Below the pieces are notes generated by a model. It did no database searches. It was not told where the DNA came from and worked only from the letters and a program-made list of their open reading frames with translations. Both the position numbers and the translations under genes were made by a program. 47,754 nucleotides of DNA from a virus (taxonomy: Duplodnaviria; Heunggongvirae; Uroviricota; Caudoviricetes), in IMG/VR virus record IMGVR_UViG_2778261224_000004; one strand, given 5' to 3'. Below, in pieces: positions 7,742 to 46,830 of the stretch; the first letter of the stretch is position 1; each line of letters begins with the position of its first letter.

Positions 7742-7949
7742 TATTGCGTCTCCACGGAGGAAAATTGTTTACTGATATTGGCATAACCGGAGCATCAGGA
7801 ACTTTAAGAATAATTCCCGCAGAAAAAAGCACCGTAAAGCGGTGCTCAGTATTAGCATCAATAAGAAGATAAGACAGGTACTCATTACCATACAACTTTA
7901 AAGCGATACTATCCCATGAGTCCCCTTGAACCGTTCTATAATCATCCAA
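7731..7949 (-). CDS. Tail protein X-like (LysM-like)
   Basis: 72-aa ORF immediately after tape measure; pattern ..QGDSWDSIALKLYG.. resembles P2 gpX/LysM-type tail proteins. Confidence 0.5.
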   Translation of the reverse strand: MDDYRTVQGDSWDSIALKLYGNEYLSYLLIDANTEHRFTVLFSAGIILKVPDAPVMPISVNNFPPWRRNSVT

Positions 7950-10734
7950 AACTTAATCTCCGTTGTTGGAACATATGAGCACTCAATTTCTTCTCAAAAT
8001 CAGAATATCCCGCATCTAATGCTCTTTTAGCTGCCGCCTCAGTTTCCTTTGGTGAACCAGCCGGAAGATTGATTACAGGTGAATAGGTTATTCCACCAGT
8101 CACAGCGTTAACGTTCTGGCGAGGTCCAGAAGTCCCGGCGGCAGATATCCCGTGAGGTGATAAATTTGATTGCCCGAACTTGCTTGCTATTGCATTCTGT
8201 AAGCTGTTATTCCTGCTAACACCTGATGCCAGAGTAGTCATTATTGCACCACCTGACTTTGTTAGCTGTGAGAATGGACCTTTTTTCGCGTCAGAGAACG
8301 GTAAATACTCACGTACAGAAGAAAAAACGCCTTTCACTTCATTAATTAAAGCATTTGCTTTTGATTTTATCCCAGTGATTAACGTCTCAATTATTTTTGC
8401 GCCTGACTCACTCCAGTTTATTCCAGATAAATAAGTCGTTACAGATTGGAATGCTCTTATAAAGAGTCCAACTGGTGAAAAACGCATAAAAACAGATACC
8501 AGTGTATCTATGATTTTCTTTCCTGTTTCGCTCCAGTTAATGCCAGAAAGGTAATTTGTTGTAATTTTAAATGCTTTAATTAAGAACGGAAGCGGAGACA
8601 TCCATTTAAAAGCACTAATTAATGTACTGTAAATTCTTACACCTGCCGAACTCCAGTTTATGTTGGAAAGATAATCCCATGCTTTACCAAACATAGATAT
8701 AATCCATCCATTGAGGTCAAAGTTTAAGATAAAGTTTTTTATAGCCTCAAATGATTTAACTGTATATTCCTTAACAGAAGGCCAAACTCTGACAGCATAA
8801 TCTCTGATCTTATCCCAATTCTGATAGAGCAATATTCCTGCGGCAACCAGCGCAGATATAGCCATCTGAATCCACCCGAAGGGTGTTAGCTTTGTCGCTA
8901 CAGATAAAGCCAGCATAGCTACCCTACACGCTATAACCACACTTTTCATGGTTAGAAACGCACCTGCCGCCATCACTATCTGAGACACAAAATTGGGGTT
9001 GTTAGCTACAAATTCACTAATTTTTGTAATCAGCGGAACCAAAACACTAAGCGCGGCATTCAAAGCAGGTTGCAAGGCCTGACCAAAACTTAATGATGCA
9101 TTGCTAGCCTGAATACGTAATTGTTTCAATCGCTCCGCATTATCTTTCGTTATGTTGGCAAAATCGCGGTCAATAACAGCACTTCCAGCTCCAAGAGATG
9201 TTGCTTTGATTCTCTGGTATTCCTTCCAGTTTTGAATCATCGGACGAACAAAGTTCTGAACCTGCATATCGCCAAATAGTTCACCAAGTAACTTCTGATC
9301 TCCGTTCTTAGTCATTTTCATGACAGAATGCATTGCAGCTTCGAATGGATTCTTCCCTTTTTTCTGCGCTGTTGTAACAATTTTATATAAATCTACACCG
9401 AAATTTTTCTTTGCTTTTTTTAGTGTTTCAGGGGAAAGTATTTTTGCCAAAAAGTTGTTCATATTATTAGCAGCCTCATCCGAAGTTGCAGCCCCCTTGC
9501 GAGCTATCTGCAAAGCTGCACCCATCGTCGCGGCTGCTTCTTTACCTCCCATTTTTAATGCCTGGAACTGAGCACCAAGCACAGGAAGATTTTTGGCCAT
9601 ATCTTTAAATTCAAAGTTCCCCTCTTTCCCTGCCTGAACCAGAATCCCCATTGCAGACTTCATTTGAGATGGATCAATCTTCAATGAGTCACTTAATGTA
9701 AATGATGCTTTCGAGACATCGAGGATATCAGAGCCAGTAGCTGTAGCTGTTCGCCCAATAGTTAGTAGATTCGCCTGAGCCTCTTTATAATCCTGCCCAG
9801 CAGCGACGAGAAAACCCTGAGCGGCCTGAATATCAGATGCAAACTGGTTGGTAGCCGTTCCGGTAACAAGCATCGCCTGCCCCATCGCCTGAACTTCTTC
9901 CGGCTTCATATCTGCCGTAAGACCAATCATTTTGTTTTCACGATTGAAATTTGCTGCATTGTTAGCAGCAGCAAATGCACCAGCCGCTACAGCACCAGTT
10001 TGTAATCCTGACCTTACAAGTTGACTCTTTGCCTCACCAAGATGCTCTCGCTTCAATTCACGCTGCCTTTCCAACGCGCGGTTTAACTCCTCCTGAGCAC
10101 GTTTTACTGCAAGAACATTTTTCCGTGCTTCAGCCAACGCATTTTTATAGCTGTTAATTTTATCAATACGTTGTTTTTCTAATGCCCGGTTAAGTTCCTC
10201 CTGCTGTTTTTTCACTTGCTGAACATTTGCTCTGGCTAAAGCCAAAGCCGTTCTGTAGCGGTTAACCTGCTCAACGCTACGGGCCTGAGCCTCACGATTA
10301 CGATCAATGCTGGCTTTAAGCTCTTTCTCTCTTGAGGCCAAAGCTCTGGCAGATGTATCAGCTCCCTGATAGGCAGACTTTAAAGCGGCCAGTTCTTCAC
10401 GCTGAGAACGTAGTGATGCTCGTAAATTCGATGAATGTGTTTTTGCCTTCTCAAAGTCACGAAGCATCGCTCTGGTTGGATTGGCCGTGTTTTTTATTTG
10501 CTTCTGTAACTCTTCAACGCGAGCGGCAGCTTTATGATATTCGAGGGCAGTCTGTCCAACCTTTACTTTTACAGATTGTAGCTTTTGAATTTCCCCATGT
10601 TCTTTCGTTAATCCAGCAAGCTCGGCATTTAATTTAGCAACAGCCTGATTAGCTGTAGTAAAACTTTTGGGGAGAGAGGCGGCAACTTTGCCGCCAATTT
10701 CAAAAGCCAGCTTAAAGTTCTTATTGCTGGCCAT
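7942..10734 (-). CDS. Tail tape measure protein
   Basis: 930-aa ORF; long N-terminal coiled-coil-like repeats (..EELNRALE.. repeated), central hydrophobic segments; follows frameshifted chaperone gene. Confidence 0.8.
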   Translation of the reverse strand: MASNKNFKLAFEIGGKVAASLPKSFTTANQAVAKLNAELAGLTKEHGEIQKLQSVKVKVGQTALEYHKAAARVEELQKQIKNTANPTRAMLRDFEKAKTHSSNLRASLRSQREELAALKSAYQGADTSARALASREKELKASIDRNREAQARSVEQVNRYRTALALARANVQQVKKQQEELNRALEKQRIDKINSYKNALAEARKNVLAVKRAQEELNRALERQRELKREHLGEAKSQLVRSGLQTGAVAAGAFAAANNAANFNRENKMIGLTADMKPEEVQAMGQAMLVTGTATNQFASDIQAAQGFLVAAGQDYKEAQANLLTIGRTATATGSDILDVSKASFTLSDSLKIDPSQMKSAMGILVQAGKEGNFEFKDMAKNLPVLGAQFQALKMGGKEAAATMGAALQIARKGAATSDEAANNMNNFLAKILSPETLKKAKKNFGVDLYKIVTTAQKKGKNPFEAAMHSVMKMTKNGDQKLLGELFGDMQVQNFVRPMIQNWKEYQRIKATSLGAGSAVIDRDFANITKDNAERLKQLRIQASNASLSFGQALQPALNAALSVLVPLITKISEFVANNPNFVSQIVMAAGAFLTMKSVVIACRVAMLALSVATKLTPFGWIQMAISALVAAGILLYQNWDKIRDYAVRVWPSVKEYTVKSFEAIKNFILNFDLNGWIISMFGKAWDYLSNINWSSAGVRIYSTLISAFKWMSPLPFLIKAFKITTNYLSGINWSETGKKIIDTLVSVFMRFSPVGLFIRAFQSVTTYLSGINWSESGAKIIETLITGIKSKANALINEVKGVFSSVREYLPFSDAKKGPFSQLTKSGGAIMTTLASGVSRNNSLQNAIASKFGQSNLSPHGISAAGTSGPRQNVNAVTGGITYSPVINLPAGSPKETEAAAKRALDAGYSDFEKKLSAHMFQQRRLSFG

Positions 10735-10739
10735 TAGTA

Positions 10740-10922
10740 TTAATCCTCATTAAACACGTCAATCCATGCGACGATTCGCCTCAACCGAAGCGAAAGCCAG
10801 TAGGATATAGGTGTTGATTGAGATGATTGAGATAGAGAACTCGCGGCCCTCATTATTTGCTTATCAATAGGTTTTTGCTCATCAAAACCTACGAGAGCAA
10901 AAAATTCTGTACCTTTTGACAA
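10740..10922 (-). CDS. E-prime-like C-terminal extension reached by -1 frameshift from the tail assembly chaperone ORF
   Basis: ORF in the -1 frame overlapping the 3' end of 10889..11170 by 34 nt; the track start is TTG, not ATG, so it is unlikely to be independently initiated. Confidence 0.5.
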   Translation of the reverse strand: MSKGTEFFALVGFDEQKPIDKQIMRAASSLSQSSQSTPISYWLSLRLRRIVAWIDVFNED

Positions 10923-11170
10923 ACTTTAACAAAGTCTTTCGCTGGTAATCCATTCAGATACTCTATTGGACGACCAATACAGCGAGCAGCCAAGGCTGCA
11001 TGGACTTTATTATCAAGTGATGTTTGAACTGAAACATGCCCTTGAGATTGCAGTAAGTCCGATACCTCTAAAATATCACTGCCTTTTAGGTTGTCTAAAT
11101 CAAGGTTGAGTTCAGTCACTGGCTCAAAGTCTTCAAAACGATATTCTTTACTTAATTTAACGGTTTCCAT
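10889..11170 (-). CDS. Tail assembly chaperone (P2 gpE-like)
   Basis: 93-aa ORF between tail tube and tape measure genes, with frameshift partner downstream. Confidence 0.6.
   Translation of the reverse strand: METVKLSKEYRFEDFEPVTELNLDLDNLKGSDILEVSDLLQSQGHVSVQTSLDNKVHAALAARCIGRPIEYLNGLPAKDFVKVCQKVQNFLLS
10898..10904 (-). other. Slippery heptamer T_TTT_TTG for programmed -1 ribosomal frameshift
   Basis: Minus-strand codons AAT TTT TTG 5 codons before the chaperone stop; same heptamer as the P2 E/E' shift site. Confidence 0.55.
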
Positions 11171-11179
11171 TTTTTCACC

Positions 11180-11701
11180 TTATAAACCTAAATCATCACG
11201 AACAGTTTTTAATATATCTTCGCCATCAAAGATACAAATAAAGTTCAACTTATCAATTTCTAAGACTTCTTTCCCATCAATAAATAATTTGATATAGAGA
11301 ACTTCGAATTCATTTTCTGAATCAGTGGCCTTTGCTACCTGTAGCGAACCTAAATCCAGTTTTTTAGGGTTTAGCTTCATTGAAGCCCGAATAGGAACCG
11401 TTTTATATTTTCCTGTTCCTGCATCATAAACCTGCTGGCTACCGCGAAAATCTACCTGATGCGATGAGGATAGAAATAATTTTGTACCAGCAGAGGTCAG
11501 AGTTCGCCATTTAAGAGAGACAGTCATTGGTTTGAAATGCCCCAGCGTTCCGCTCTCAAGCTCTCCAGCGATACCTGCACCACTAACAGTTTCTGTCATC
11601 ATCTCAATTGATGGCAGCTTTGCGTCAGCAACACCGATAATACGGTTTCCTTCACCGTATACTGTAAAGTTAATAAGTCTCTCAGGAATTTGATTGCTCA
11701 A
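11180..11701 (-). CDS. Major tail tube protein (P2 FII / Mu gp40-like)
   Basis: 173-aa ORF directly downstream of sheath gene. Confidence 0.7.
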   Translation of the reverse strand: MSNQIPERLINFTVYGEGNRIIGVADAKLPSIEMMTETVSGAGIAGELESGTLGHFKPMTVSLKWRTLTSAGTKLFLSSSHQVDFRGSQQVYDAGTGKYKTVPIRASMKLNPKKLDLGSLQVAKATDSENEFEVLYIKLFIDGKEVLEIDKLNFICIFDGEDILKTVRDDLGL

Positions 11702-11717
11702 AGCAACCTCCTATTAT

Positions 11718-13181
11718 TTATTCAGAAAACAAGTTCAGCAGATAATCAGGATTATATTCCATGACGAACTCTATATCTCTGGCAGGTGAGAATGGTGTCA
11801 TTTTCACATGGAATTTAACAATCCCGTCCATCAATGACGTAATCGTGTTTTCAGACTGATCAAAGGTAACAACACCACCTGCAATATCCTGATTACCAGT
11901 GAGGCCGTTAAGCCAAATATTCGCACTAGTAACAATCGATTCAATTAATCGACGGTTTGCAGGATTGTCTATTTTTGACCAATGCGAAAGAATTAACGTA
12001 TTACCCACCCAGTTAAACATACGTCGGCAAACACGAAATGCGTCTTTGGGGTCTGTAGATGTTGGATAAATAGCATTACGGTTTCCCCATGATTTCCAAC
12101 CATCAAAATTAAGGCTTGTTACAATCCCCTGTCCATTTAAGTAGTTTGCCTGGCTAATGTTAAGCCATACCTCACTGCCATCTTTACGTACAGCACCGTC
12201 CATCTGTAGTTTTATATTTGACGGAGAACGTGATGGAATATCACCATACTGACTATCCAGCAAGCATGTTGCTGCCGCTAAATGGGTTGAGTGATGGTAA
12301 ATATTGTCACCAAGTTTCACCATCGGCCAGCACACTGTCTGGTTAGCTGCCATATGATTATTGTTCTGCTTCCATTCAGGAACAGCAGAATAATCACTGA
12401 TAGTAGATTTATCAGTCGGCGCATCGGTGATAGCTTCTGCTTTGAACAATTCACTAATCAGCGCAGCTTTAGCCGCCATTAGCTGGCCAACTTCACTATC
12501 AGAACTAAATCCAGGCGCAATCACTTGTCCTGGAACTAGTTTGAAGCGGGGATAAACATCCGACAGTAACTCAAGCCCCGTATTCGCTTTAGTGTTGGAA
12601 TCCACGCCACCAATAATATCGTTTTTAGTTACAGCCCCGGGATCAAGATACGTATAACTAACCTTAAGAGTGGCGTCTTTTTCAGTAACTTTTCCTCCGC
12701 TAATAGCGGTAATGACCGTATAGCCATTATCATCCAGCGCCAGTACATAATCTGTATCAACCGTTAACCCTGGAGAATCACCATCTGCTTTTTTCACAAC
12801 AACAGATTTATATAAGACACCATCGTTAGAGAGCGTACCTTTCCCGCCAGAAAGTTTTACTACCTCATCAGTTACGTCTTTCTTATGCTTTGCTGGATCA
12901 AGCACATTGATAAATACAACTGGCGCAACACCATATATTCCAAATGCGACTTTAATTACTTCGCTTAAAGTATATTTCTCGAAGTTTGTGCTATATCCTA
13001 TTTTAGATACGGCCTCTGCGTATGTATAAGCAATGATAGGTTTATTTACCGCTGAGGCTGGATCTTCTAACTGATTAACAGGAGCTGTACCAAATGCGAC
13101 AATCAACCCAGCACTAACTTGTACTGGAGGAGTTATAGATGTAGCCAGCTCAGATATATAAATACCGTGGCGATATCCCAT
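11718..13181 (-). CDS. Contractile tail sheath protein
   Basis: 487-aa ORF, sheath-like size and composition, upstream of tube gene. Confidence 0.8.
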   Translation of the reverse strand: MGYRHGIYISELATSITPPVQVSAGLIVAFGTAPVNQLEDPASAVNKPIIAYTYAEAVSKIGYSTNFEKYTLSEVIKVAFGIYGVAPVVFINVLDPAKHKKDVTDEVVKLSGGKGTLSNDGVLYKSVVVKKADGDSPGLTVDTDYVLALDDNGYTVITAISGGKVTEKDATLKVSYTYLDPGAVTKNDIIGGVDSNTKANTGLELLSDVYPRFKLVPGQVIAPGFSSDSEVGQLMAAKAALISELFKAEAITDAPTDKSTISDYSAVPEWKQNNNHMAANQTVCWPMVKLGDNIYHHSTHLAAATCLLDSQYGDIPSRSPSNIKLQMDGAVRKDGSEVWLNISQANYLNGQGIVTSLNFDGWKSWGNRNAIYPTSTDPKDAFRVCRRMFNWVGNTLILSHWSKIDNPANRRLIESIVTSANIWLNGLTGNQDIAGGVVTFDQSENTITSLMDGIVKFHVKMTPFSPARDIEFVMEYNPDYLLNLFSE

Positions 13182-14690: not shown

Positions 14691-15734
14691 TTAAACCACC
14701 TTAGCCACCAGATAGGCATCAGCCACACCAGGATTAGGCAGTGGAGATGACTTCATGGCAACATAACGGCCAGCCGGCTTACGAGTTACCCAGGTGTCTG
14801 GAACTCGTGGTGACTCAACAATCGTTAGAGTCTTTTCGGCGTCATCTACAAGCTCTACAGCACCATACAGCATCGTTCCTCGACCAGGAGAGCCAAAGAG
14901 GATCTTATCTTCCGGTACTAATGGTTCAGGTTTTCCTGTTTTATCATTGCGAATAAGTTCGTCGTAACCATAAAAATCGACACCTTCAAGATTGCCATAA
15001 TGAGTTACGCCTTCTTCTAACTCTTTAGGCTCAATATACCCAAGCTCTTTTCGGCGATTATCAAGATATTTAGTTACTGCTTCATTTTTAACGAAGGCAT
15101 CAACAACTTTTGCGCCCATTACGGCAACACGAGGTGTAAAACCTGAAGTTAGTGATACCCGACGTTTCCAGTTGCGAACATTGACTAACGGATCTGATTT
15201 TGCTGCACTCCATAAATCATCACCTGTCAGTTCAAGATATGGTTTATCTCCTTCCTCTTCAGGCCAAAAATAAACTGTGTCATCCACTCCTTCACCAACA
15301 ATATCAACCTGCCCCGTAAACAAGACTTGTGCACACATCCATTCTTCACGGCGGTTAACCATTTCATCAAGCTCAAGCAAATCTTTACCTAATTGCTCGG
15401 CGGCTCGTTCTGCTGGCGATTTTGCGTTGTAAATATTCTCACCCGGAAGCCTGTTTAAAAGCAGCTCGGCTGTTGTTACCAAATCAGGTGCAACAAGTGG
15501 TGGCTCCAGAGTTCTCGTTACAAAGCCGCGTCGCTCAACGGTTTTTGAGCCAAAACCTTTACCAACAAACGGAGCCATAGTACGGCCACCGCGAACAAAA
15601 TCCAGATCAACTTTCTTTGTATTAAAGGTCTGAACACCAGGAAAAAAGGTACGAAGAAGAAAACGACGAGCCTTGAAATTCTGAATAACAGGCTCAAGCA
15701 TCGTACGTCGTTCAAAAATATCAATATTCGGCAT
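14691..15734 (-). CDS. Major capsid protein, lambda gpE-like
   Basis: 347-aa ORF; size and position after decoration gene match the lambda E family. Confidence 0.8.
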   Translation of the reverse strand: MPNIDIFERRTMLEPVIQNFKARRFLLRTFFPGVQTFNTKKVDLDFVRGGRTMAPFVGKGFGSKTVERRGFVTRTLEPPLVAPDLVTTAELLLNRLPGENIYNAKSPAERAAEQLGKDLLELDEMVNRREEWMCAQVLFTGQVDIVGEGVDDTVYFWPEEEGDKPYLELTGDDLWSAAKSDPLVNVRNWKRRVSLTSGFTPRVAVMGAKVVDAFVKNEAVTKYLDNRRKELGYIEPKELEEGVTHYGNLEGVDFYGYDELIRNDKTGKPEPLVPEDKILFGSPGRGTMLYGAVELVDDAEKTLTIVESPRVPDTWVTRKPAGRYVAMKSSPLPNPGVADAYLVAKVV

Positions 15735-16147: not shown

Positions 16148-17236
16148 TTAATTTTTATCGCGGTTTTTAAATACTGACCCAATAACATTTTTTACTGCTT
16201 CAGCCTGTTTGTTGCCGTTGTTTTCTGGTTGATTAACATCAACTGAATCATTCACCTCACTTGCGTCTTCTTGCCGTTGATTAAGAAAGTTTTTGTTACG
16301 CGCTCGCTCTGCATTCATAATTTCCAAAGCAAGTTCAGCCGCAGAAACTCCTGTTTTGAATTTTGCATTCTTAACCAGGTCGTCATGACCAGGAATCACG
16401 CTATTCTCGATTGTTTCAATGCGCTCGCGTTCTGATTTAACGCCCTCGTCTTTACCAGCATTAAAAACCTGATTGTATAATTCTGGATATTTATTTTTTA
16501 ATTCATCAAGAGTCACAATATCGTCCTCATTTTGTTCATTTGATTCAGTAGATAACTCATTTTTATTTTGCGGCAACTTTGCGAGTGAATCAGGTAATTT
16601 TGAAAACCTTGATGCTTCAAAAGTTATTCCATTAAGCGAAAGCATCCCTTCCTTTATAGAAGCGGATAAGCGTATTGGTTTTTCAACTTCGTCAGCAAAT
16701 CCAAGCTCTACAGCCTCTTCTGCATTTAGCCATGTTTCCTGATCCATTAGTTCAATTAATTTATCCTCAGAAAGCCCTGTTTTCTCCTTATATGCAGATA
16801 AAATACTATTGCGTATCTTATCCATCATCTCAGCAATATCACGCAATTCATCCGCATCGCCAGCAGCAAATGTCCACGGATTATGGATCATCATCATAGC
16901 ATTAGATGGGATAATAATTTTATCACCCGCCATTGCAATAATAGTTGCAGCCGATGCAGCAATCCCGTCGATATAAACCGTAATATTCGCCTTATGACGC
17001 TTCAATGATGAAAGAATAGCTTGAGCAGTAAAAACAGAACCACCATAACTATTAATTTTTACGTTGATAGTATTTGATGAAATATCCTTTAATTTATTAA
17101 CTATGTCAGAAGAAGAAACCTCATCAAATTCACCAATATACCCGTAAATTAAAAGTTCAGCCGGAGAGTCATCTTCACCCGTGCTATTTTTTATTTCCCA
17201 CCAATTAGGCATCATCAGTCTCCATATTTTGTTCAT
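16148..17236 (-). CDS. Prohead protease / scaffold (ClpP/S49-like, lambda gpC-like)
   Basis: 362-aa ORF; N-terminal ClpP-like core (IYGYIGEF...NSYGGSV...DGIAASAA) followed by charged scaffold-like C-terminus. Confidence 0.75.
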   Translation of the reverse strand: MNKIWRLMMPNWWEIKNSTGEDDSPAELLIYGYIGEFDEVSSSDIVNKLKDISSNTINVKINSYGGSVFTAQAILSSLKRHKANITVYIDGIAASAATIIAMAGDKIIIPSNAMMMIHNPWTFAAGDADELRDIAEMMDKIRNSILSAYKEKTGLSEDKLIELMDQETWLNAEEAVELGFADEVEKPIRLSASIKEGMLSLNGITFEASRFSKLPDSLAKLPQNKNELSTESNEQNEDDIVTLDELKNKYPELYNQVFNAGKDEGVKSERERIETIENSVIPGHDDLVKNAKFKTGVSAAELALEIMNAERARNKNFLNQRQEDASEVNDSVDVNQPENNGNKQAEAVKNVIGSVFKNRDKN

Positions 17237-18779
17237 TTACCTCAGAAACAGGAGGTGTAATAAGCCCCAACTCACGGCGAGCATTCTCTTCTCTGCCACA
17301 GATTTGTGCGGTTTCTTCCCAGTTAAGACCTGACATTTCAGCCGCTTCTTTTTCACGGGTAGAGAATGTTTCCTCAACACGCAGTTTTGCAGCTTTGACT
17401 TCTTTAAGGGGATCTAATTGGCCTTGTGATGGGCCATACCATTGAGCGCCACTCCATGCAGCGCGATATTTAGGCCCATAAAAAAAACCAGGGGCAATAA
17501 CACGACCTTTAGCAACGGCTTCGGCCAACCATTCCTCATAGATCGGTTGGCAAAATGACTGAACCATCCAGTCACGTCGCATACGGAACATTTTCCAGGC
17601 TTCAAGTAATGCGGCCCTGCTTGCGCTATAACTTGCTGTAAAATGCTTTACCAAGAGTTCGTAAGGGAGTTCTAAAGCAGCCCCAATTTGACGGCATATG
17701 GCGACAACAAAACCATCAAATGCCGTATTTGGTCGCCCGGGATTTGCTGTATCTATCGACTCACCTTCACCCAAACTTACTATGGAGCCATTCCCCATTT
17801 CTTGGGTGTTATCATCATGGTTATCGATCTGCTCGTACTGAGGGATACCCGATTCACCGACTGGCCCATCAGGAGCGTCTGTTTTAATAAAGACAGTAAA
17901 CATCCCTGACACAACCGCAGCAACCAATTCAGCATCGGTGTATCGTCCTAACTGCTTCAATGCTTCAATTACAGGAGCAAGGACAGGAACGCCACGGCGT
18001 TGCCCAGGCCTTTCAAAATCCTGCATGACATGCAGAATATTTCTTCTTCCTGTTTTACTCCCATATGCGGGAATACGTTCCCACTTGCGGGTTACAAAAC
18101 CAGAAGTCCCGGCTGGGTGATGTTTTGCAACCCAGTACGCCACAGGCTCGCTAAATTCACCAACCTCTACGCCACCGTAAAGATTTGGTATAAAACGATC
18201 CTCTGGATTGCAAACACGATCACCTTCAATTAAATAGACGCACAAATCATATATAACACCCTTACGCTTAATAACTGGTAGCGCAGCAAATATATCGCCA
18301 GATGTTAACGCAGATATTTGGACCAATGATTGCAATTGTCCAAAAGTACACATTCTTGATGCATCACAATTTGGAGAATCAGCCCATAATCTAAACTCAC
18401 GCTCAACATGCTTTTCCCATGCTCGCGCTTCTTCCTGCGTCATCCCCAAGAAATCGGCATCAATGTTCGCATTTAGTTTTAAACCGGAACCAACAACGTT
18501 TGTCCTGATAGTTTTTATTGCGCCAACAGATAGCGGGTTTCCCATGAAGAGATCACGAGAACGCTCACGCAATTTATCTATATTTTTAACAATATCATCA
18601 TCAGGAGAACCAGCTTTACTAAACCAACCCCTTAATGATTTTTTATGAGTGCTTGCACCATGACGTGAATATCCAAGGTTATTAATACCTTCAAGTGCTT
18701 CTAACCGTTTTCTTGCCAAAGCTCGATTTAATGCCCTCTGAGGTGAAAACGGCGCAATAACTCGATCAAGAATATTCAT
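17205..18779 (-). CDS. Portal protein, lambda gpB-like
   Basis: 524-aa ORF between gpW-like and protease genes. Confidence 0.8.
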   Translation of the reverse strand: MNILDRVIAPFSPQRALNRALARKRLEALEGINNLGYSRHGASTHKKSLRGWFSKAGSPDDDIVKNIDKLRERSRDLFMGNPLSVGAIKTIRTNVVGSGLKLNANIDADFLGMTQEEARAWEKHVEREFRLWADSPNCDASRMCTFGQLQSLVQISALTSGDIFAALPVIKRKGVIYDLCVYLIEGDRVCNPEDRFIPNLYGGVEVGEFSEPVAYWVAKHHPAGTSGFVTRKWERIPAYGSKTGRRNILHVMQDFERPGQRRGVPVLAPVIEALKQLGRYTDAELVAAVVSGMFTVFIKTDAPDGPVGESGIPQYEQIDNHDDNTQEMGNGSIVSLGEGESIDTANPGRPNTAFDGFVVAICRQIGAALELPYELLVKHFTASYSASRAALLEAWKMFRMRRDWMVQSFCQPIYEEWLAEAVAKGRVIAPGFFYGPKYRAAWSGAQWYGPSQGQLDPLKEVKAAKLRVEETFSTREKEAAEMSGLNWEETAQICGREENARRELGLITPPVSEVNEQNMETDDA

Positions 18780-19026: not shown

Positions 19027-20883
19027 CTATATGGTTACGCCTTTACTTATAACTCTACGGCGTCTTCTACGTATACCTGACGAGTTCTGCACATACACAT
19101 TACCTCGCATTTCCTGTTCGGCAAGCCAGTTAAAATTAGGGTTCAGAATTTCCATCGCGGCAGTTGCATAGTTACGGCAATCAAGAGGCTCGTTACGCTC
19201 GTAGACTTTCACCCACTTTTCTTTTGTCTGCCCATTTTTATATTCAAATATTTTTTTCTCTGATAATAATCCTTTAAAGTATTCGGTATCATATCCTCTG
19301 TCAGAATCTAATGGGAAATGCATATAACCAGGACCAGGATCATGTAGTTTAATTCTTGCCATGATGGTCCCTTTACCATCATCAACCCCCAAATTAAACA
19401 ACATAGCACCCACACGGTTATTATTACTTGGCTTTCCTATAAATGGTAAACCTACCCCACCACGCCCCCTGATAGAGTATATTCGCCTTGATTCTCTCGG
19501 CTTAGTAAAGCGATATACCTCTGTCGTAAAATGCCCACCAGAGTCAATACAAACGGAAGAAATCTGTAATTTTCGACCGTCACGGAATGACCAGCTACGG
19601 AGTAAGTATTCATCAAGTTGTTTCCAGACAACATCTTGTGCGGGATCACCTGGGAATATTTTATATTCTATCCCCCATGACTCCTTACCTTTTCCCCAAC
19701 CGACCAATTCACAAACTAAATACGTGTCCTGTACGTCAACACCAGCACTTAACAATAAAACATCATCTGGTAAAAACTCTTCAAACCTTATTCTGCGTTG
19801 CAACAAGTATTCAGGATCGATATCGTCTTTAGCATCCTCTTTCCATGGCTCACCCAGCTTAAGGTTAATAAACTCCATTAATCCATTTTTATCGCGGTTT
19901 CTGGTTGCTTCCGTAAATTCTTCAACCAGCTCTGACAATGCAACCCACGGGGAGTAAAGACTGTTAATATGAAAACCAACAATACCTTTAACTCCAGTAT
20001 GTTCAGCTATCCATACCCCCTTCGCCAACCAATCAACGTCTGGTTTACCAGATCCGCGCATAATCCCGCCGCACTCACAGCACTCATATCTGGCCGTTTC
20101 CGGTAACGCCTCACCTGAATCGCTCTTATCCCATCTGACTTGCGACCATTTCATCACCTGCATGGTGCCACAACATGGGCAAGGAACATGGTAGTAACGC
20201 TGATCGGAGAGCTTAAACCACTTGTGGATTTTGCTTGTTTCCTCCAAAACAGGAGTAGAAACAAAAACTTTCTTACGATTATGAAAGTTGGTAGTACGCT
20301 GAATACCTAGTTTTAGTGGGTCGCCCTCCTGCGTCACACCGTAACGATCAATCTCATCAGCTAACAGTATTCGAATTGGCCTGGATGCAAGACCTGCTGG
20401 GGAATTAGCACCAACAAGTGCTATATATCCACCAGCGTAATGCTTCATACGTATAGTCGTGCTGGACTTTTTGGCTGCACCGCGCCCCTCTTTCCCTTCA
20501 TGCAGCTTGTGTTTCAAACCAGGGGAATATTTGAACGTCGGATCAATACGCTCTTTTGAAAAAGCCTCAGCCGCCTCTACCGTTGGATAAATCATCAACT
20601 GAGGAGATGGCTCCTGATCTGCAAAGTAACCCATAACATTTAGCTGTAATTCGGATTTACCAATTTGCGAGCTACATTGCATCACTACTGTTTCTGTATC
20701 AGCGTCACCAATAACATCCATTGGTTCACGCAAATATGGCACTCGGCTTGTACGCCACGGCCCTGGCTCTGGAGACGTTCCCGGCGCTACATGACGATAC
20801 TTATCAGCCCATTCGGAAACAGTTAGCCGTGATTTAGGGCGAAGCGCACGGAAAAAAGCGGTGCTCCATACTGTTTCGCCCAT
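19027..20883 (-). CDS. Terminase large subunit, lambda gpA-like
   Basis: 618-aa ORF; N-terminal ..TVSEWADKY.. and ATPase region resemble the GpA terminase family. Confidence 0.85.
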   Translation of the reverse strand: MGETVWSTAFFRALRPKSRLTVSEWADKYRHVAPGTSPEPGPWRTSRVPYLREPMDVIGDADTETVVMQCSSQIGKSELQLNVMGYFADQEPSPQLMIYPTVEAAEAFSKERIDPTFKYSPGLKHKLHEGKEGRGAAKKSSTTIRMKHYAGGYIALVGANSPAGLASRPIRILLADEIDRYGVTQEGDPLKLGIQRTTNFHNRKKVFVSTPVLEETSKIHKWFKLSDQRYYHVPCPCCGTMQVMKWSQVRWDKSDSGEALPETARYECCECGGIMRGSGKPDVDWLAKGVWIAEHTGVKGIVGFHINSLYSPWVALSELVEEFTEATRNRDKNGLMEFINLKLGEPWKEDAKDDIDPEYLLQRRIRFEEFLPDDVLLLSAGVDVQDTYLVCELVGWGKGKESWGIEYKIFPGDPAQDVVWKQLDEYLLRSWSFRDGRKLQISSVCIDSGGHFTTEVYRFTKPRESRRIYSIRGRGGVGLPFIGKPSNNNRVGAMLFNLGVDDGKGTIMARIKLHDPGPGYMHFPLDSDRGYDTEYFKGLLSEKKIFEYKNGQTKEKWVKVYERNEPLDCRNYATAAMEILNPNFNWLAEQEMRGNVYVQNSSGIRRRRRRVISKGVTI

Positions 20884-23323: not shown

Positions 23324-24703
23324 CTACTTAATCAACGGCCGGAAAGCCGCCAGCACATCATCAGATCGTCCGATTGTTGAACCACCAGGCAACGGCAACT
23401 CAAACTCAAAACGAACAGCTTTCTCCAGACTCGCCCAACTAAGGGAATCATCGTTAATAACGTGCAAATACCAGCTCTTACAGTTGAATATTGACCGCTT
23501 AATCCTGAAACCATGTACACGACACAACTGCTTCACTTCATCATCAGAGTGAAACTTCTGGTAAAACCAGTGCCCCTTCCGGTACAACGCGGTAAAACCG
23601 TTATGATCAATAAAATAAAGCCGGCTTTTGGAACTCGCAGCTTGTGTTTGCTTCAGGACTGTTTCCAGCTCTCCACGGCTACGGCCAGAAAAGAATATTG
23701 ACCCACCAGCTTTACACAAGCCTTTCAGAACCGTCAGAACGGACCATTCAGCCTCGACACTATCGACCGAGTTCAAAACGCTATCGCAAATCACGTAGTC
23801 GTAACGCCCTCGCGTTTTTAAGTCGTCCACCAGCGTATCAATCATCCGGTTTGTTGCGGTCCTATCCAGAGTGTTTCCAGCGCCCTTACGGCGGAAAAGC
23901 TCGAGATCATGCAGGTTATATCCCTTTGCCCTGAGCATTCGCGCGTAGTCTCCCTGCCCCGAACCAAAATCAATTCCTCTTGGCGTCTTGGCAACGATCG
24001 GGAGGATCAACGACTCATACAGATTTGATTTCAGGCTGCCACCATTACGCAACCGCATAAGCTGCGCATACGTCTGGATGTATGTTGTTTTCTCCAGATG
24101 AGAATACTCAAATACACCATAAGTTTTATTCAGATAACTTTGGTATTTTTCCTTCTCAACATCAGGGATCACAAACACCGTTAGCGGTGTGCGCGTCATT
24201 TTCGCTGCTAATGCATACTGAGCACAGTGAATAACCTCACCAGACTGAGTAGCAACACAACCACCCCACGGACCATACTTGATAACCAGTTCCGCTATGT
24301 TCTTTCGAACATATGCCATTTTCGCGCGCATATTGCCTGAGATCTGGCTTGCCGATACCTGAACAAAACCATGCTTATCTTCCAGACCGGACACCCTGCA
24401 ACGCTCATCTCCGCTATCAAAATCCGTTCCGTTATGCAGTTGGTTAAACCGTACTTCGTCGTATACCGTCGTTTCACAGGGCAACACATACACCGCAGCA
24501 CGCGTTATTCCCAACTTACGTAGCGCCTTCGTCCTTTGGTGTCCCGCCACCAGCAAATCGCCGCGCACTATCAATGGCTTCACAAGCCCCAGCTCCCTGA
24601 CGCTTTCCGCCAGCCTCGCAAGATCATCCTCACCGATAAAACGCGGGTTATATTCCGCGCCGCGTAGGTGCGTTATGTCGTAATTGAGGTGAAGCATCAG
24701 CAC
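23324..24703 (-). CDS. ParB-like N-terminal domain fused to a class I SAM-dependent methyltransferase domain
   Basis: 459-aa ORF; N-terminal ParB-like ..LVAGHQRTKAL..; C-terminal Rossmann methyltransferase motif I GIDFGSGQGDYA and motif II-like YDYVICDSVL; no DPPY/DPPW or PCQ motif seen. Confidence 0.65.
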   Translation of the reverse strand: MLMLHLNYDITHLRGAEYNPRFIGEDDLARLAESVRELGLVKPLIVRGDLLVAGHQRTKALRKLGITRAAVYVLPCETTVYDEVRFNQLHNGTDFDSGDERCRVSGLEDKHGFVQVSASQISGNMRAKMAYVRKNIAELVIKYGPWGGCVATQSGEVIHCAQYALAAKMTRTPLTVFVIPDVEKEKYQSYLNKTYGVFEYSHLEKTTYIQTYAQLMRLRNGGSLKSNLYESLILPIVAKTPRGIDFGSGQGDYARMLRAKGYNLHDLELFRRKGAGNTLDRTATNRMIDTLVDDLKTRGRYDYVICDSVLNSVDSVEAEWSVLTVLKGLCKAGGSIFFSGRSRGELETVLKQTQAASSKSRLYFIDHNGFTALYRKGHWFYQKFHSDDEVKQLCRVHGFRIKRSIFNCKSWYLHVINDDSLSWASLEKAVRFEFELPLPGGSTIGRSDDVLAAFRPLIK

Positions 24704-28376: not shown

Positions 28377-28452
28377 TGGTGGCCCCTACCGGATTTGAAC
28401 CGATGACCGTGCGATTATGAGTCGCCTGCTCTAACCACTGAGCTAAGGGGCC
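28377..28452 (-). tRNA. tRNA with CAT anticodon (Met or lysidine-type Ile2), encoded CCA end
   Basis: Hand-folded cloverleaf GGCCCCTTAGCTCAGTGGTTAGAGCAGGCGACTCATAATCGCACGGTCATCGGTTCAAATCCGGTAGGGGCCACCA: 7-bp acceptor stem, D arm, anticodon loop CTCATAA, T loop TTCAAAT. Confidence 0.85.
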
Positions 28453-45852: not shown

Positions 45853-46830
45853 TTAATGTTGGAGTGATTTCCAGGTCTTTCTTAACCTGTTATAACGCTG
45901 CTCAACGAGGGATCGTAAATATGCAAGGTCAGCTCCAGGATACATGCCATCAGCAAATTCCTGGCTAACCTCTCTAGTGATTTGATGACGAAGTTCGGCC
46001 TCTCCCTTTTCCCGAACAAGACGCGCAGCTCTCTCCGCTGCTTTCTGTTTTGCCTTTATCTCTCTGGCCGTCTTCCTCTGATGCCATACATTCTCCATCT
46101 GCTCCTGAATAACAATACGCTTATAATCAGCCTCCGTTATCGCTTTTTTAAGCCGTTCGCTATTCTTCGCATTGAAGTAATTAAGTTTCTGGCTAACCGC
46201 ACGTCTCCATGCTTGTTCAGTAATACCAACGGTTTCCAGCAGTTGATCACGAATCTCTATTTTCGCTGGCCAATACTGTTTATTCACCCGATCCCAGCGA
46301 CGTTCATAATCAATAAAACCTAACGCTTTCAGTTGCGACAATGCCCTTGTACAGCGCGTTATAGACTTGTTCCCAGCTTCGGATACGGTAGACAGGCCGC
46401 AAAAATCAGCCAACGCCTCAGCACTGGCCAGAACCCGCTTAGAAATGATGTTTACATGGTGCAAAATCGCAGCGATCACAGCATTAATCGCCCGACGACG
46501 ATGCTCGTTTATCCGGCGCTTCCGCTCTGACGGTTGATTAACGTAGAACGCAACCTCACACGTAAGATCACGCCCATTAATGCGCTGTAAAGCATCAGAT
46601 AACACCAGCGGCAGCTTGTGCGTATGGTGCTTTGGAGGCTGGAACTCCGGCGACAAATTACAAACGTAAGCTGAACGTAGAGACGGCATTGGTCTATCCA
46701 TATGTTCGCTCTTGCGTCCACGGAAAACCAACGTATAATGGGAGTTGTCGAGGCGCCCATGGTTAGTTGTTGGTTTTCCGTGGATGTCGCAAGAAGCCCG
46801 CAGATTTATCTGCGGGCTTTTTGTTTCCAT
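45853..46830 (-). CDS. repA: Plasmid replication initiator RepA, IncFII (RepFIIA)-like; true start probably internal (Met 46701 or 46692)
   Basis: 325-aa ORF; ..FCGLSTVSEAGNKSITRCTRALSQLKALGFIDYERRWD.. resembles the RepA1 core as recalled; the N-terminal 43 codons overlap the antisense-RNA/leader structures. Confidence 0.6.
   Translation of the reverse strand: METKSPQINLRASCDIHGKPTTNHGRLDNSHYTLVFRGRKSEHMDRPMPSLRSAYVCNLSPEFQPPKHHTHKLPLVLSDALQRINGRDLTCEVAFYVNQPSERKRRINEHRRRAINAVIAAILHHVNIISKRVLASAEALADFCGLSTVSEAGNKSITRCTRALSQLKALGFIDYERRWDRVNKQYWPAKIEIRDQLLETVGITEQAWRRAVSQKLNYFNAKNSERLKKAITEADYKRIVIQEQMENVWHQRKTAREIKAKQKAAERAARLVREKGEAELRHQITREVSQEFADGMYPGADLAYLRSLVEQRYNRLRKTWKSLQH
46746..46826 (+). 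ncRNA. Candidate CopA-like antisense RNA opposite the repA leader
   Basis: Plus-strand TTGCGT-N16-TATAAT (46712-46739) and, about 80 nt downstream, terminator GCCCGCAGA-TTTA-TCTGCGGGC plus TTTTGTTT (46796-46826); perfect 15-bp inverted repeat 46718-46732 / 46768-46782 in the leader. Confidence 0.5.

What the first reader, a model, noticed from the sequence alone, without database searches (positions are those of the whole stretch)
10740..11170. Programmed -1 frameshift in the tail assembly chaperone (E/E'-like)
The 93-aa chaperone ORF contains the slippery heptamer T_TTT_TTG (10898-10904, minus strand) 5 codons before its stop, and the overlapping -1 frame stays open for another ~52 codons to just before the tape measure gene. 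The downstream ORF has no ATG of its own (track start is TTG). This matches the conserved chaperone frameshift of long-tailed phages and predicts a fusion product of about 140 aa.
Basis: partly seen in the sequence, partly recalled or inferred. Interest (0 to 1): 0.4.

Follow-up and report, generated by a model that had tools for sequence, protein, structure and literature searches.

The report
Tail chaperone −1 frameshift, P2 type
This is the ordinary, well-known ribosomal frameshift site that lets long-tailed phages make a short and a long version of their tail assembly chaperone; it is present, intact and unannotated in a 48-kb E. coli phage-plasmid.

Summary
A 93-aa ORF (11170..10889, minus strand) lies between the tail tube gene and the tape measure gene. 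It carries T_TTT_TTG (10904..10898) as codons 89-91 (AAT TTT TTG), followed by two more sense codons and a stop. The −1 frame then stays open for 52 codons, to a TAA 5 nt before the tape measure ATG, which predicts a 143-aa fusion.

The heptamer alone is no more frequent than chance. The case rests on other evidence:
- The ORF belongs to Pfam Phage_TAC_7, the family of P2 gpE.
- P2 E/E+E' uses the identical heptamer in the identical frame.
- The same T6G (T6C once) sits in the same frame, 2-6 codons before the stop, in eight further distinct relatives. They have 29-97% amino-acid identity and come from Proteobacteria and Firmicutes phages.
- One relative, Vibrio phage X29, is already annotated with the frameshift.
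- The extension peptide is a conserved family (phrog_30074, E 2e-31) and shows third-codon-position substitution bias.
- No start codon in the −1 frame has a Shine-Dalgarno sequence.

No strong stimulatory RNA structure is present here, as in P2, although the Vibrio relatives have one. This is a new, unannotated member of a known kind, of low novelty.

The parts
10889..11170 (-). Tail assembly chaperone ORF (gpE/gpG analogue), 93 aa, zero frame. ATG at 11170, preceded by AGGTGA (11180-11175). Stop TAG at 10891-10889.
   Evidence: PF10109 Phage_TAC_7, 25.4 bits against a cut-off of 25. phrog_3140 'tail assembly chaperone', E 8.7e-43. RefSeq names the identical protein 'phage tail assembly protein'.
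10898..10904 (-). Slippery heptamer T_TTT_TTG: third base of codon 89 (AAT), then codon 90 (TTT) and codon 91 (TTG).
   Evidence: Identical heptamer and register in P2 E/E+E'. The same motif is found in eight further distinct relatives: TTTTTTG in seven and TTTTTTC in Faecalibacterium phage Epona.
10740..10904 (-). −1 frame extension (E'/T analogue): 54 codons from the heptamer, 52 of them new residues, ALVGFDEQ...WIDVFNED. Stop TAA at 10742-10740.
   Evidence: phrog_30074, E 1.7e-31. Substitutions against the L017/L018 relatives by −1 codon position are 8/5/21; amino-acid identity is 73% in this frame against 51% and 47% in the others, which contain stops.
10740..11170 (-). Predicted frameshift fusion product, 143 aa (residues 1-91 from the zero frame plus 52 from the −1 frame).
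   Evidence: The fusion matches phrog_3140 continuously across the junction (residues 1-137). AlphaFold model with pLDDT 88.6 has a helix (77-96) running through the junction.
10867..10892 (-). Weak AU-rich hairpin (9 bp, 8-nt loop, about −8.5 kcal/mol) starting 5 nt after the heptamer and containing the UAG stop. Its role is doubtful.
   Evidence: Not better than shuffles (z −0.2 to −1.1). Not conserved in the relatives with 76% nucleotide identity.
7942..10734 (-). Tape measure protein gene, 930 aa. Its Shine-Dalgarno sequence (GAGGA) lies inside the end of the extension ORF.
   Evidence: PF10145 and phrog_28. Shine-Dalgarno energy −6.1 kcal/mol.
11180..11701 (-). Tail tube protein gene (FII family), immediately upstream.
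   Evidence: PF04985, E 5e-44.
11718..13181 (-). Tail sheath protein gene.
   Evidence: phrog_23, E 2.8e-96. RefSeq 'phage tail sheath family protein'.

Best explanation
This is a programmed −1 ribosomal frameshift in the tail assembly chaperone gene of a contractile-tailed phage-plasmid.

Proposed mechanism:
1. Most ribosomes translate the 93-aa chaperone and stop at TAG 10891-10889.
2. A minority slip back one base on U_UUU_UUG, when tRNA-Phe (P site, UUU) and tRNA-Leu (A site, UUG) re-pair on UUU UUU.
3. Those ribosomes read 52 further codons in the −1 frame and release a 143-aa fusion just before the tape measure start codon.

By analogy with lambda gpG/gpGT and P2 gpE/gpE+E', the common N-terminal domain coats the tape measure protein. 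The rare C-terminal extension recruits the tube protein, and neither product ends up in the virion.

Shown here: the anatomy, the homology, the conservation of the site and of the extension frame, and the absence of an independent start. Inferred: that the shift occurs, its frequency, and the roles of the two products.
For: 1. Position and gene order: sheath, tube, chaperone, −1 ORF, tape measure.
2. The zero-frame ORF is in PF10109 together with P2 gpE.
3. P2's annotated shift site is GGT TTT TTG, the same heptamer in the same register. PMC3091744 states that the P2 shift at TTTTTTG yields 91-aa E and 142-aa E+E'.
4. The heptamer is present in the same frame, 2-6 codons before the stop, in eight further distinct relatives with 29-97% amino-acid identity. 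These are enterobacterial relatives and Vibrio X29, XM1 and PVP-XSN, Pararheinheimera KLER1-1, Paenibacillus Lily and Acinetobacter HFM1, with TTTTTTC in Faecalibacterium Epona.
5. Given N-F-L, this element's codon usage would give AAT TTT TTG only about 9% of the time. The synonymous positions are therefore conserved.
6. In X29 the −1 frame opens only one codon before the heptamer, which pins the shift site there. X29 is annotated with the join as a 'lambda gpGT analog' (PMC5690320).
7. The extension is a conserved protein. It matches phrog_30074 at E 1.7e-31, and the fusion matches phrog_3140 across the junction. The motif TPI.YWLSL.L is shared among relatives. Substitutions by codon position are 8/5/21, and the other two frames contain stops.
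8. The candidate starts in the −1 frame have anti-Shine-Dalgarno energies of −0.7 to −3.1 kcal/mol. The six neighbouring real genes scored give −3.7 to −10.9.
9. Of 144 library representatives at 50% clustering or less, about 100 carry F-[LF] within their last 14 residues, mostly 1-5 residues from the end.
Against: - There is no experimental evidence for this element; everything is comparative.
- No significant stimulatory RNA structure follows the heptamer (z −0.2 to −1.1). P2 also lacks one (PMC3091744).
- A UUG A-site codon is not among the most efficient E. coli slippery A sites (own knowledge).
- The Pfam score of the ORF is only just above the cut-off (25.4 against 25).
- The extension has no detectable similarity to the P2 E' family PF06528.
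Confidence: 0.9

Rival explanations
1. The frame change is made by RNA polymerase rather than the ribosome. Transcriptional slippage on the T6 run would insert one extra U in a fraction of mRNAs, and normal translation of those would give the same fusion.
For: The site is a homopolymeric T run. One extra T does give an in-frame fusion: a metagenome relative (L046) carries T7 and encodes a 166-aa in-frame E-E' fusion.
Against: The run is only 6 nt. From my own knowledge, efficient bacterial transcriptional slippage needs runs of roughly 8-9 or more. No selection for a longer run is visible: the nine distinct sequences examined (window plus eight relatives) keep exactly T6 in the X_XXY_YYZ register. 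P2's identical site is described as a translational frameshift.
Confidence: 0.05
2. The −1 ORF is an independent small gene, started at TTG 10922 or at ATG 10853 (the latter would give a 37-aa product). No frameshift occurs.
For: Gene callers do annotate separate small ORFs there in some relatives: XM1, PVP-XSN, KLER1-1 and Lily. A 37-aa cluster starting at the internal Met exists in the protein library (P0021).
Against: None of the four in-frame start codons has a Shine-Dalgarno sequence (−0.7 to −3.1 kcal/mol). The start positions are not conserved among relatives, and in X29 the frame opens only at the heptamer. This model does not explain why the heptamer's synonymous positions are conserved, or why the zero frame always ends 2-6 codons later.
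Confidence: 0.03
3. The coincidence is non-functional: a chance T-run and a chance open frame in the spacer between the chaperone and tape measure genes.
For: TTTTTTG is not enriched in the window (17 copies against 21.6 expected). The sequence is AT-rich.
Against: Heptamer, frame, extension length and extension sequence are conserved across relatives from different phyla. The extension matches a PHROG family at E 1.7e-31.
Confidence: 0.02

Closest known systems
Bacteriophage P2 gpE / gpE+E' (−1 frameshift in the FETUD tail operon; Christie et al. 2002, as cited in PMC3091744)
   Same: [quoted passage not shown] Almost the same product sizes: 91 and 142 aa in P2, 93 and 143 aa here. The same position between the tube gene (FII) and the tape measure gene. 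The N-terminal domain is in the same Pfam family, PF10109. No stimulatory downstream structure.
   Different: The PHROG families differ: P2 is in phrog_103, 1756 and 6416, the window in phrog_3140 and 30074. The extension is not a PF06528 member, and hhalign gives only a weak colinear match (E 0.026, probability 1.9%). Here the stop follows 2 codons after the heptamer, against 6 in P2. The surrounding phage is not P2-like: it has lambda-type head genes and an IncFII plasmid replicon.
Vibrio phage X29 / phi 2 'lambda gpG / gpGT analogs' (NC_024369; PMC5690320)
   Same: The same protein subfamily: 45% identity in the chaperone and 38% over the fusion, phrog_3140 and phrog_30074. The sequence AAT TTT TTG followed by 2 codons and a stop is the same. 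The frameshift is already annotated as a joined CDS.
   Different: X29 and its Vibrio and Pararheinheimera relatives have a strong hairpin starting 8 nt after the heptamer (−25 to −32 kcal/mol, z −4.5 to −8). The window has only a weak 9-bp AU-rich hairpin.
Phage lambda gpG / gpGT (Levin 1993; Xu, Hendrix & Duda 2004, 2013, 2014, as reviewed in PMC5009743)
   Same: The same logic: two products share an N terminus and are made at a fixed ratio by a −1 shift near the end of the gene upstream of the tape measure gene. The extension has no start of its own.
   Different: Lambda is a siphovirus. From my own knowledge its slippery sequence is G_GGA_AAG. No detectable sequence similarity was found here.
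B. subtilis skin-prophage YqbN (PDB 3klu) and the HK97 tail assembly chaperone (PDB 2ob9)
   Different: The scores are low, sequence identity is 10-12%, and Foldseek finds no significant PDB match. This is a fold-level resemblance only.

Membership tests
Conserved tail-assembly-chaperone −1 frameshift pair (lambda G/GT, P2 E/E+E'; Xu et al. 2004) | Two overlapping ORFs located between the major tail (tube) gene and the tape measure gene | tested here: met
   Tube 11701-11180, chaperone 11170-10889, −1 ORF to 10740, tape measure from 10734.
Conserved tail-assembly-chaperone −1 frameshift pair (lambda G/GT, P2 E/E+E'; Xu et al. 2004) | Canonical slippery heptamer X_XXY_YYZ in the zero frame within the overlap | tested here: met
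   T_TTT_TTG at 10904-10898. It is the only such heptamer in the 12-codon overlap.
Conserved tail-assembly-chaperone −1 frameshift pair (lambda G/GT, P2 E/E+E'; Xu et al. 2004) | The downstream ORF lacks its own translation initiation signals | tested here: met
   The four in-frame start codons have anti-Shine-Dalgarno energies of −0.7 to −3.1 kcal/mol. The six neighbouring genes scored give −3.7 to −10.9.
Conserved tail-assembly-chaperone −1 frameshift pair (lambda G/GT, P2 E/E+E'; Xu et al. 2004) | Shift site and extension frame conserved among relatives | tested here: met
   T6G or T6C in the same register in eight further distinct relatives. The extension is open to the tape measure gene and shares motifs; codon-position substitution bias is 8/5/21.
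Conserved tail-assembly-chaperone −1 frameshift pair (lambda G/GT, P2 E/E+E'; Xu et al. 2004) | Both the short and the fused product are made, at a low fixed ratio, and both are needed for tail assembly | not testable with these tools
   This requires mass spectrometry, western blot, reporter assays and genetics. No proteomic data for this element were found in the literature searches.
Pfam PF10109 Phage_TAC_7 (P2 gpE, Mu gp41 family) | N-terminal domain scores above the Pfam gathering threshold | tested here: met
   25.4 bits against a cut-off of 25 for the 93-aa ORF. The 143-aa fusion alone scores 23.7. All 8 members of alignment A2 match, best E 1e-7. P2 gpE scores 47.8 bits.
Pfam PF06528 Phage_P2_GpE (the E' extension domain of P2) | The −1 extension matches the family model | tested here: not met
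   No hit at E up to 10 for the extension or at E up to 1 for any A2 member, whereas P2 E+E' scores 76 bits. hhalign against P2 E+E' gives E 0.026 and probability 1.9%.
PHROG 3140 / 30074 (X29-type tail assembly chaperone and its frameshift extension) | Significant match of the chaperone, and of the extension, to the family profiles | tested here: met
   phrog_3140 at E 2.8e-47 over residues 1-137 of the fusion. phrog_30074 at E 1.7e-31 for the extension alone. The X29 fusion hits the same two families.

The most novel reading that the evidence does not exclude
Within one chaperone subfamily that shares the same T6G shift site, lineages differ in their stimulators. Vibrio and Pararheinheimera phages carry a strong hairpin 8 nt downstream. 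The enterobacterial phage-plasmid clade, like P2, has none, or only a weak stop-codon-containing hairpin 5 nt downstream. The ratio of short to long chaperone may therefore be tuned in a lineage-specific way, or the weak hairpin at 10867-10892 may be a real but modest stimulator. A relative with T7 (L046) may even make only the fused form.
Probability: 0.3. Interest if true: 0.3.

Novelty: new member of a known kind. Interest (0 to 1): 0.15.

Why it matters
The main value is annotation quality. None of the public records inspected that are near-identical to this element annotates the 143-aa fusion. These are a RefSeq E. coli plasmid (PGAP) and Yersinia phage vB_YpM_39. The tables for the two other near-identical phage record groups list only 'hypothetical protein' under the match. 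An essential tail assembly protein is therefore missing from the proteomes of a widespread phage-plasmid family, found in 71 of 5,426 complete E. coli genomes. The site also adds a data point that T_TTT_TTG is reused as the shift site well beyond P2-like phages, including Firmicutes phages. It teaches nothing new about mechanism.

Tried and rejected
- **Genome-contig scan:** the scan with the family alignment returned one irrelevant Planctomycete locus. The back-translated patterns were too specific.
- **NCBIfam:** no model matched.
- **tblastn of the extension alone against phages:** it found only the near-identical records plus one marginal Clostridium phage hit (E 0.5). The extension is too short and too divergent for pairwise search; the PHROG profile was needed.
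- **Christie et al. 2002 (PMC135442):** the paper is not held, so the P2 data are cited through PMC3091744 and the P2 RefSeq annotation.
- **Internal Shine-Dalgarno-like stimulator:** I considered one upstream, as in dnaX. AAGGT lies 6 nt 5' of the heptamer here and in P2. I rejected it as evidence because it coincides with conserved Lys/Arg-Val codons, and from my own knowledge the spacing is shorter than the 10-14 nt optimum.
- **Promoter and terminator scan of the region:** nothing above shuffles.
- **L016, L036 and L037:** excluded from the comparison as truncated or disrupted copies.

Full report
**1. What is in the sequence**

On the minus strand, an ATG at 11170 preceded by AGGTGA opens a 93-aa ORF that ends at TAG 10891-10889. 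Its last codons are CAG AAT TTT TTG CTC TCG TAG. The run TTTTTTG at 10904..10898 therefore sits in the register X_XXY_YYZ (T_TTT_TTG), with UUU in the P site and UUG in the A site.

The −1 frame is closed upstream by a stop and opens at 10925. It runs through the heptamer and stays open to TAA 10742-10740, a total of 61 codons with 52 after the slipped pair. The 930-aa tape measure gene starts at ATG 10734, 5 nt later, and its GAGGA Shine-Dalgarno sequence lies inside the end of the extension. A shift at the heptamer gives a 143-aa product.

There are two small corrections:
- The −1 ORF does contain an internal ATG, at 10853.
- '5 codons before the stop' counts from the codon in which the heptamer begins.

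**2. Is it more than chance?**

The heptamer alone is not. There are 17 copies on both strands, against 21.6 ± 4.6 in shuffles.

The combination is unusual. Mechanical ORFs of at least 60 aa contain 107 in-frame X_XXY_YYZ heptamers, and the −1 frame after them stays open for a median of 9 codons. Only two heptamers lie within 15 codons of the stop with at least 30 open −1 codons. The second one (41260) belongs to a spurious ORF nested in the real gene 40654-41835. The real weight comes from position and conservation.

**3. Context**

The neighbouring genes run in this order:

| Gene | Coordinates (minus strand) | Evidence |
|---|---|---|
| Tail sheath | 13181-11718 | phrog_23 |
| Tail tube FII | 11701-11180 | PF04985, E 5e-44 |
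| 93-aa ORF and −1 ORF | 11170-10740 | see below |
| Tape measure | 10734-7942 | PF10145, phrog_28 |
| gpX-like | 7949-7731 | PF05489 Phage_tail_X, E 2.3e-4, 21.1 bits (cut-off 22) |
| gpD-like | 7741-6740 | PF05954 Phage_GPD, E 2.7e-9 |
| gpV-like | 6737-6117 | PF04717 Phage_base_V, E 3.1e-7; PF18715 Phage_spike, E 3.4e-7 |

The 93-aa ORF matches Pfam PF10109 ('Phage tail assembly chaperone proteins, E, or 41 or 14') at 25.4 bits, against a cut-off of 25. It matches phrog_3140 'tail assembly chaperone' at E 8.7e-43.

The window as a whole is a roughly 48-kb phage-plasmid:
- It carries an IncFII RepA.
- All 75 matching places in 71 complete E. coli genomes lie on plasmids of about 47-51 kb.
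- Near-identical records exist as Escherichia phage vB_EcoM-613R2 and Yersinia phages vB_YpM_39, 41 and 44.
- Neither the RefSeq record nor the Yersinia phage vB_YpM_39 record inspected annotates the extension or a joined CDS.

**4. Evidence from relatives**

P2 itself carries GGT TTT TTG. RefSeq marks the −1 shift site there and gives a joined E+E' CDS. PMC3091744 states that the P2 shift occurs at TTTTTTG and yields the 91-aa E and 142-aa E+E' proteins, that related Burkholderia phages conserve the site, and that no downstream hairpin is present.

I collected DNA of relatives from IMG/VR and GenBank phages and scanned each for in-frame heptamers. Every intact relative has one:

| Relatives | Heptamer |
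|---|---|
| Enterobacterial relatives L008, L017, L018 and L033 (chaperone 69-96% aa identity) | TTTTTTG |
| Vibrio phages X29, XM1, PVP-XSN | TTTTTTG |
| Pararheinheimera phage KLER1-1 | TTTTTTG |
| Paenibacillus phage Lily | TTTTTTG |
| Acinetobacter phage HFM1 | TTTTTTG |
| Faecalibacterium phage Epona | TTTTTTC |

Further points from these relatives:
- The heptamer is always 2-6 codons before the zero-frame stop.
- The −1 frame always stays open for 54-62 codons, to just before the tape measure gene.
- In X29 the −1 frame opens only one codon before the heptamer, which pins the shift site there.
- X29 is already annotated as 'lambda gpG analog / gpGT analog' with a joined CDS (PMC5690320).
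- Given the residues N-F-L, this element's own codon usage would give AAT TTT TTG about 9% of the time. Conservation of these synonymous positions across lineages with fusion proteins 29-71% identical is therefore strong evidence of selection on the nucleotide sequence. The estimate is rough, because the lineages are not independent and codon usage differs between hosts.
- In the 1.84-billion-protein library the fusion finds 147 cluster representatives. Nearly all alignments end at query residue 91-92 and near the subject's C-terminus.
- About 100 of 144 representatives carry F-[LF] within their last 14 residues, mostly 1-5 residues from the end.

**5. The extension is a real protein-coding frame**

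- The 52-residue extension alone matches phrog_30074 at E 1.7e-31, and the fusion matches phrog_3140 continuously over residues 1-137, across the junction.
- Aligned extensions share the motif T-P-I-x-Y-W-L-S-L-x-L, followed by an amphipathic stretch.
- I compared the window with the L017/L018 relatives in the part beyond the zero-frame stop, where nucleotide identity is 76%. Differences fall 8/5/21 on −1-frame codon positions 1/2/3.
- In that same stretch, amino-acid identity is 73% in the −1 frame. It is 51% and 47% in the other two frames, both of which contain stops.
- An AlphaFold2 model of the fusion, built on a 67-sequence alignment, has mean pLDDT 88.6. It shows a β-hairpin plus helices in residues 1-96, one helix (77-96) that runs through the junction, and two further helices in the extension with pLDDT 65-90.
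- Its best match among predicted viral structures is a 147-aa protein aligned over 142 columns at 37% identity (E 3e-10). Weaker matches are named tail assembly chaperone or tape measure chaperone.

**6. Rival explanations**

*Independent initiation.* The four in-frame start codons of the −1 ORF (TTG 10922, ATG 10853, TTG 10784, GTG 10757) pair with the anti-Shine-Dalgarno sequence at only −0.7 to −3.1 kcal/mol. The six neighbouring genes scored give −3.7 to −10.9. These starts are also not conserved in relatives.

*Transcriptional slippage.* It cannot be excluded by computation. However, the run is only six T. All sequences examined keep exactly T6 in the ribosomal register rather than lengthening the run, and the identical P2 site is described as translational.

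*Chance.* This is excluded by the conservation data.

**7. Stimulatory elements**

In the window a 9-bp AU-rich hairpin (10892-10867, about −8.5 kcal/mol) starts 5 nt after the heptamer and includes the UAG stop. The region folds no better than shuffles (z −0.2 to −1.1). The stem is not kept in the relatives with 76% nucleotide identity. P2 also shows nothing (z 0.1).

The Vibrio and Pararheinheimera relatives are different. They have strong hairpins starting 8 nt after the heptamer (−25 to −32 kcal/mol, z −4.5 to −8), with G-U to G-C changes between XM1 and PVP-XSN. This lineage difference is the only mildly interesting point in the finding.

**8. Comparison with known systems**

Mechanistically this is the P2 E/E+E' and lambda G/GT device. 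For membership:
- The N-terminal domain is in PF10109 with P2 gpE.
- The extension is not in the P2 E' family PF06528.
- The PHROG families differ from those of P2 (phrog_103, 1756 and 6416) and are shared with X29 (phrog_3140 and 30074).
- hhalign of the family against P2 E+E' gives a colinear but non-significant match across the junction (E 0.026, probability 1.9%).

It is best described as an X29-type member of the Phage_TAC_7 chaperones that uses the P2-type heptamer.

**9. Verdict**

This is a new, unannotated member of a well-known kind. Confidence that a −1 ribosomal frameshift produces a 143-aa fusion is about 0.9. Interest is low (0.15). The practical value is in correcting the annotation of a common E. 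coli phage-plasmid family.

Noticed in passing
window 45853-46830 (-), and the whole window: The window is essentially a complete phage-plasmid of about 48 kb. It combines an IncFII RepA replicon, lambda-type head genes (portal 17205-18779, terminase gpA 19027-20883, capsid E 14691-15734) and a contractile tail. All 75 matching places, in 71 of 5,426 complete E. coli genomes, lie on plasmids and none on chromosomes.
   Followed up: partly
window 40227-40412 (+) and 40654-41835 (+): Rfam finds isrK (40227-40299) and a C4 antisense RNA (40324-40412) directly upstream of a gene with ORF6N and pRha domains. From my own knowledge this layout resembles the P1/P7 immI antirepressor control region.
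   Followed up: no
window 39559-39855 (-): A full-length match to the ryfA RNA family (142 bits against a gathering score of 80) on a phage-plasmid.
   Followed up: no
window 28377-28452 (-): A tRNA-Met (anticodon CAT) gene is carried by the element.
   Followed up: no
window 23324-24703 (-): A 459-aa ORF combines a ParB N-terminal domain (just below the Pfam cut-off) with a methyltransferase domain.
   Followed up: no
L002 2779-2830, L039 and L043 1764-1815, L038 about 1779-1827: Vibrio phages X29, XM1 and PVP-XSN and Pararheinheimera phage KLER1-1 have a strong hairpin starting 8 nt after the same TTTTTTG (−25 to −32 kcal/mol, z −4.5 to −8), with G-U to G-C changes between XM1 and PVP-XSN. 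The window and P2 lack such a structure.
   Followed up: partly
L046 128-628 (protein P0037): A metagenome relative carries T7 instead of T6 at the shift site (GAT TTT TTT GAA). It is called as a single 166-aa in-frame chaperone-extension fusion directly upstream of its tape measure gene. It may be a homopolymer error or a natural fusion-only variant.
   Followed up: partly
proteins P0025, P0029, P0036, P0045, P0047, P0061 and others: More than a dozen library representatives of 166-210 aa match the chaperone domain in two stretches, which suggests tandemly duplicated Phage_TAC_7 domains in some phages.
   Followed up: no
L016 1767-1823; L036 and L037 about 1548-1586: One IMG/VR relative (L016) loses the extension frame 18 codons after the heptamer, where similarity to the phage ends; it looks like a truncated remnant. 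Two others (L036, L037) have the chaperone ORF broken at an A-run near codon 20.
   Followed up: partly
window 10911-10915 (-); L045 2668-2672: AAGGT lies exactly 6 nt upstream of the heptamer both here and in P2, and (A/G)GG(T/C) is in the same place in most relatives. It coincides with conserved Lys/Arg-Val codons, so a Shine-Dalgarno-like stimulator cannot be separated from protein conservation.
   Followed up: partly
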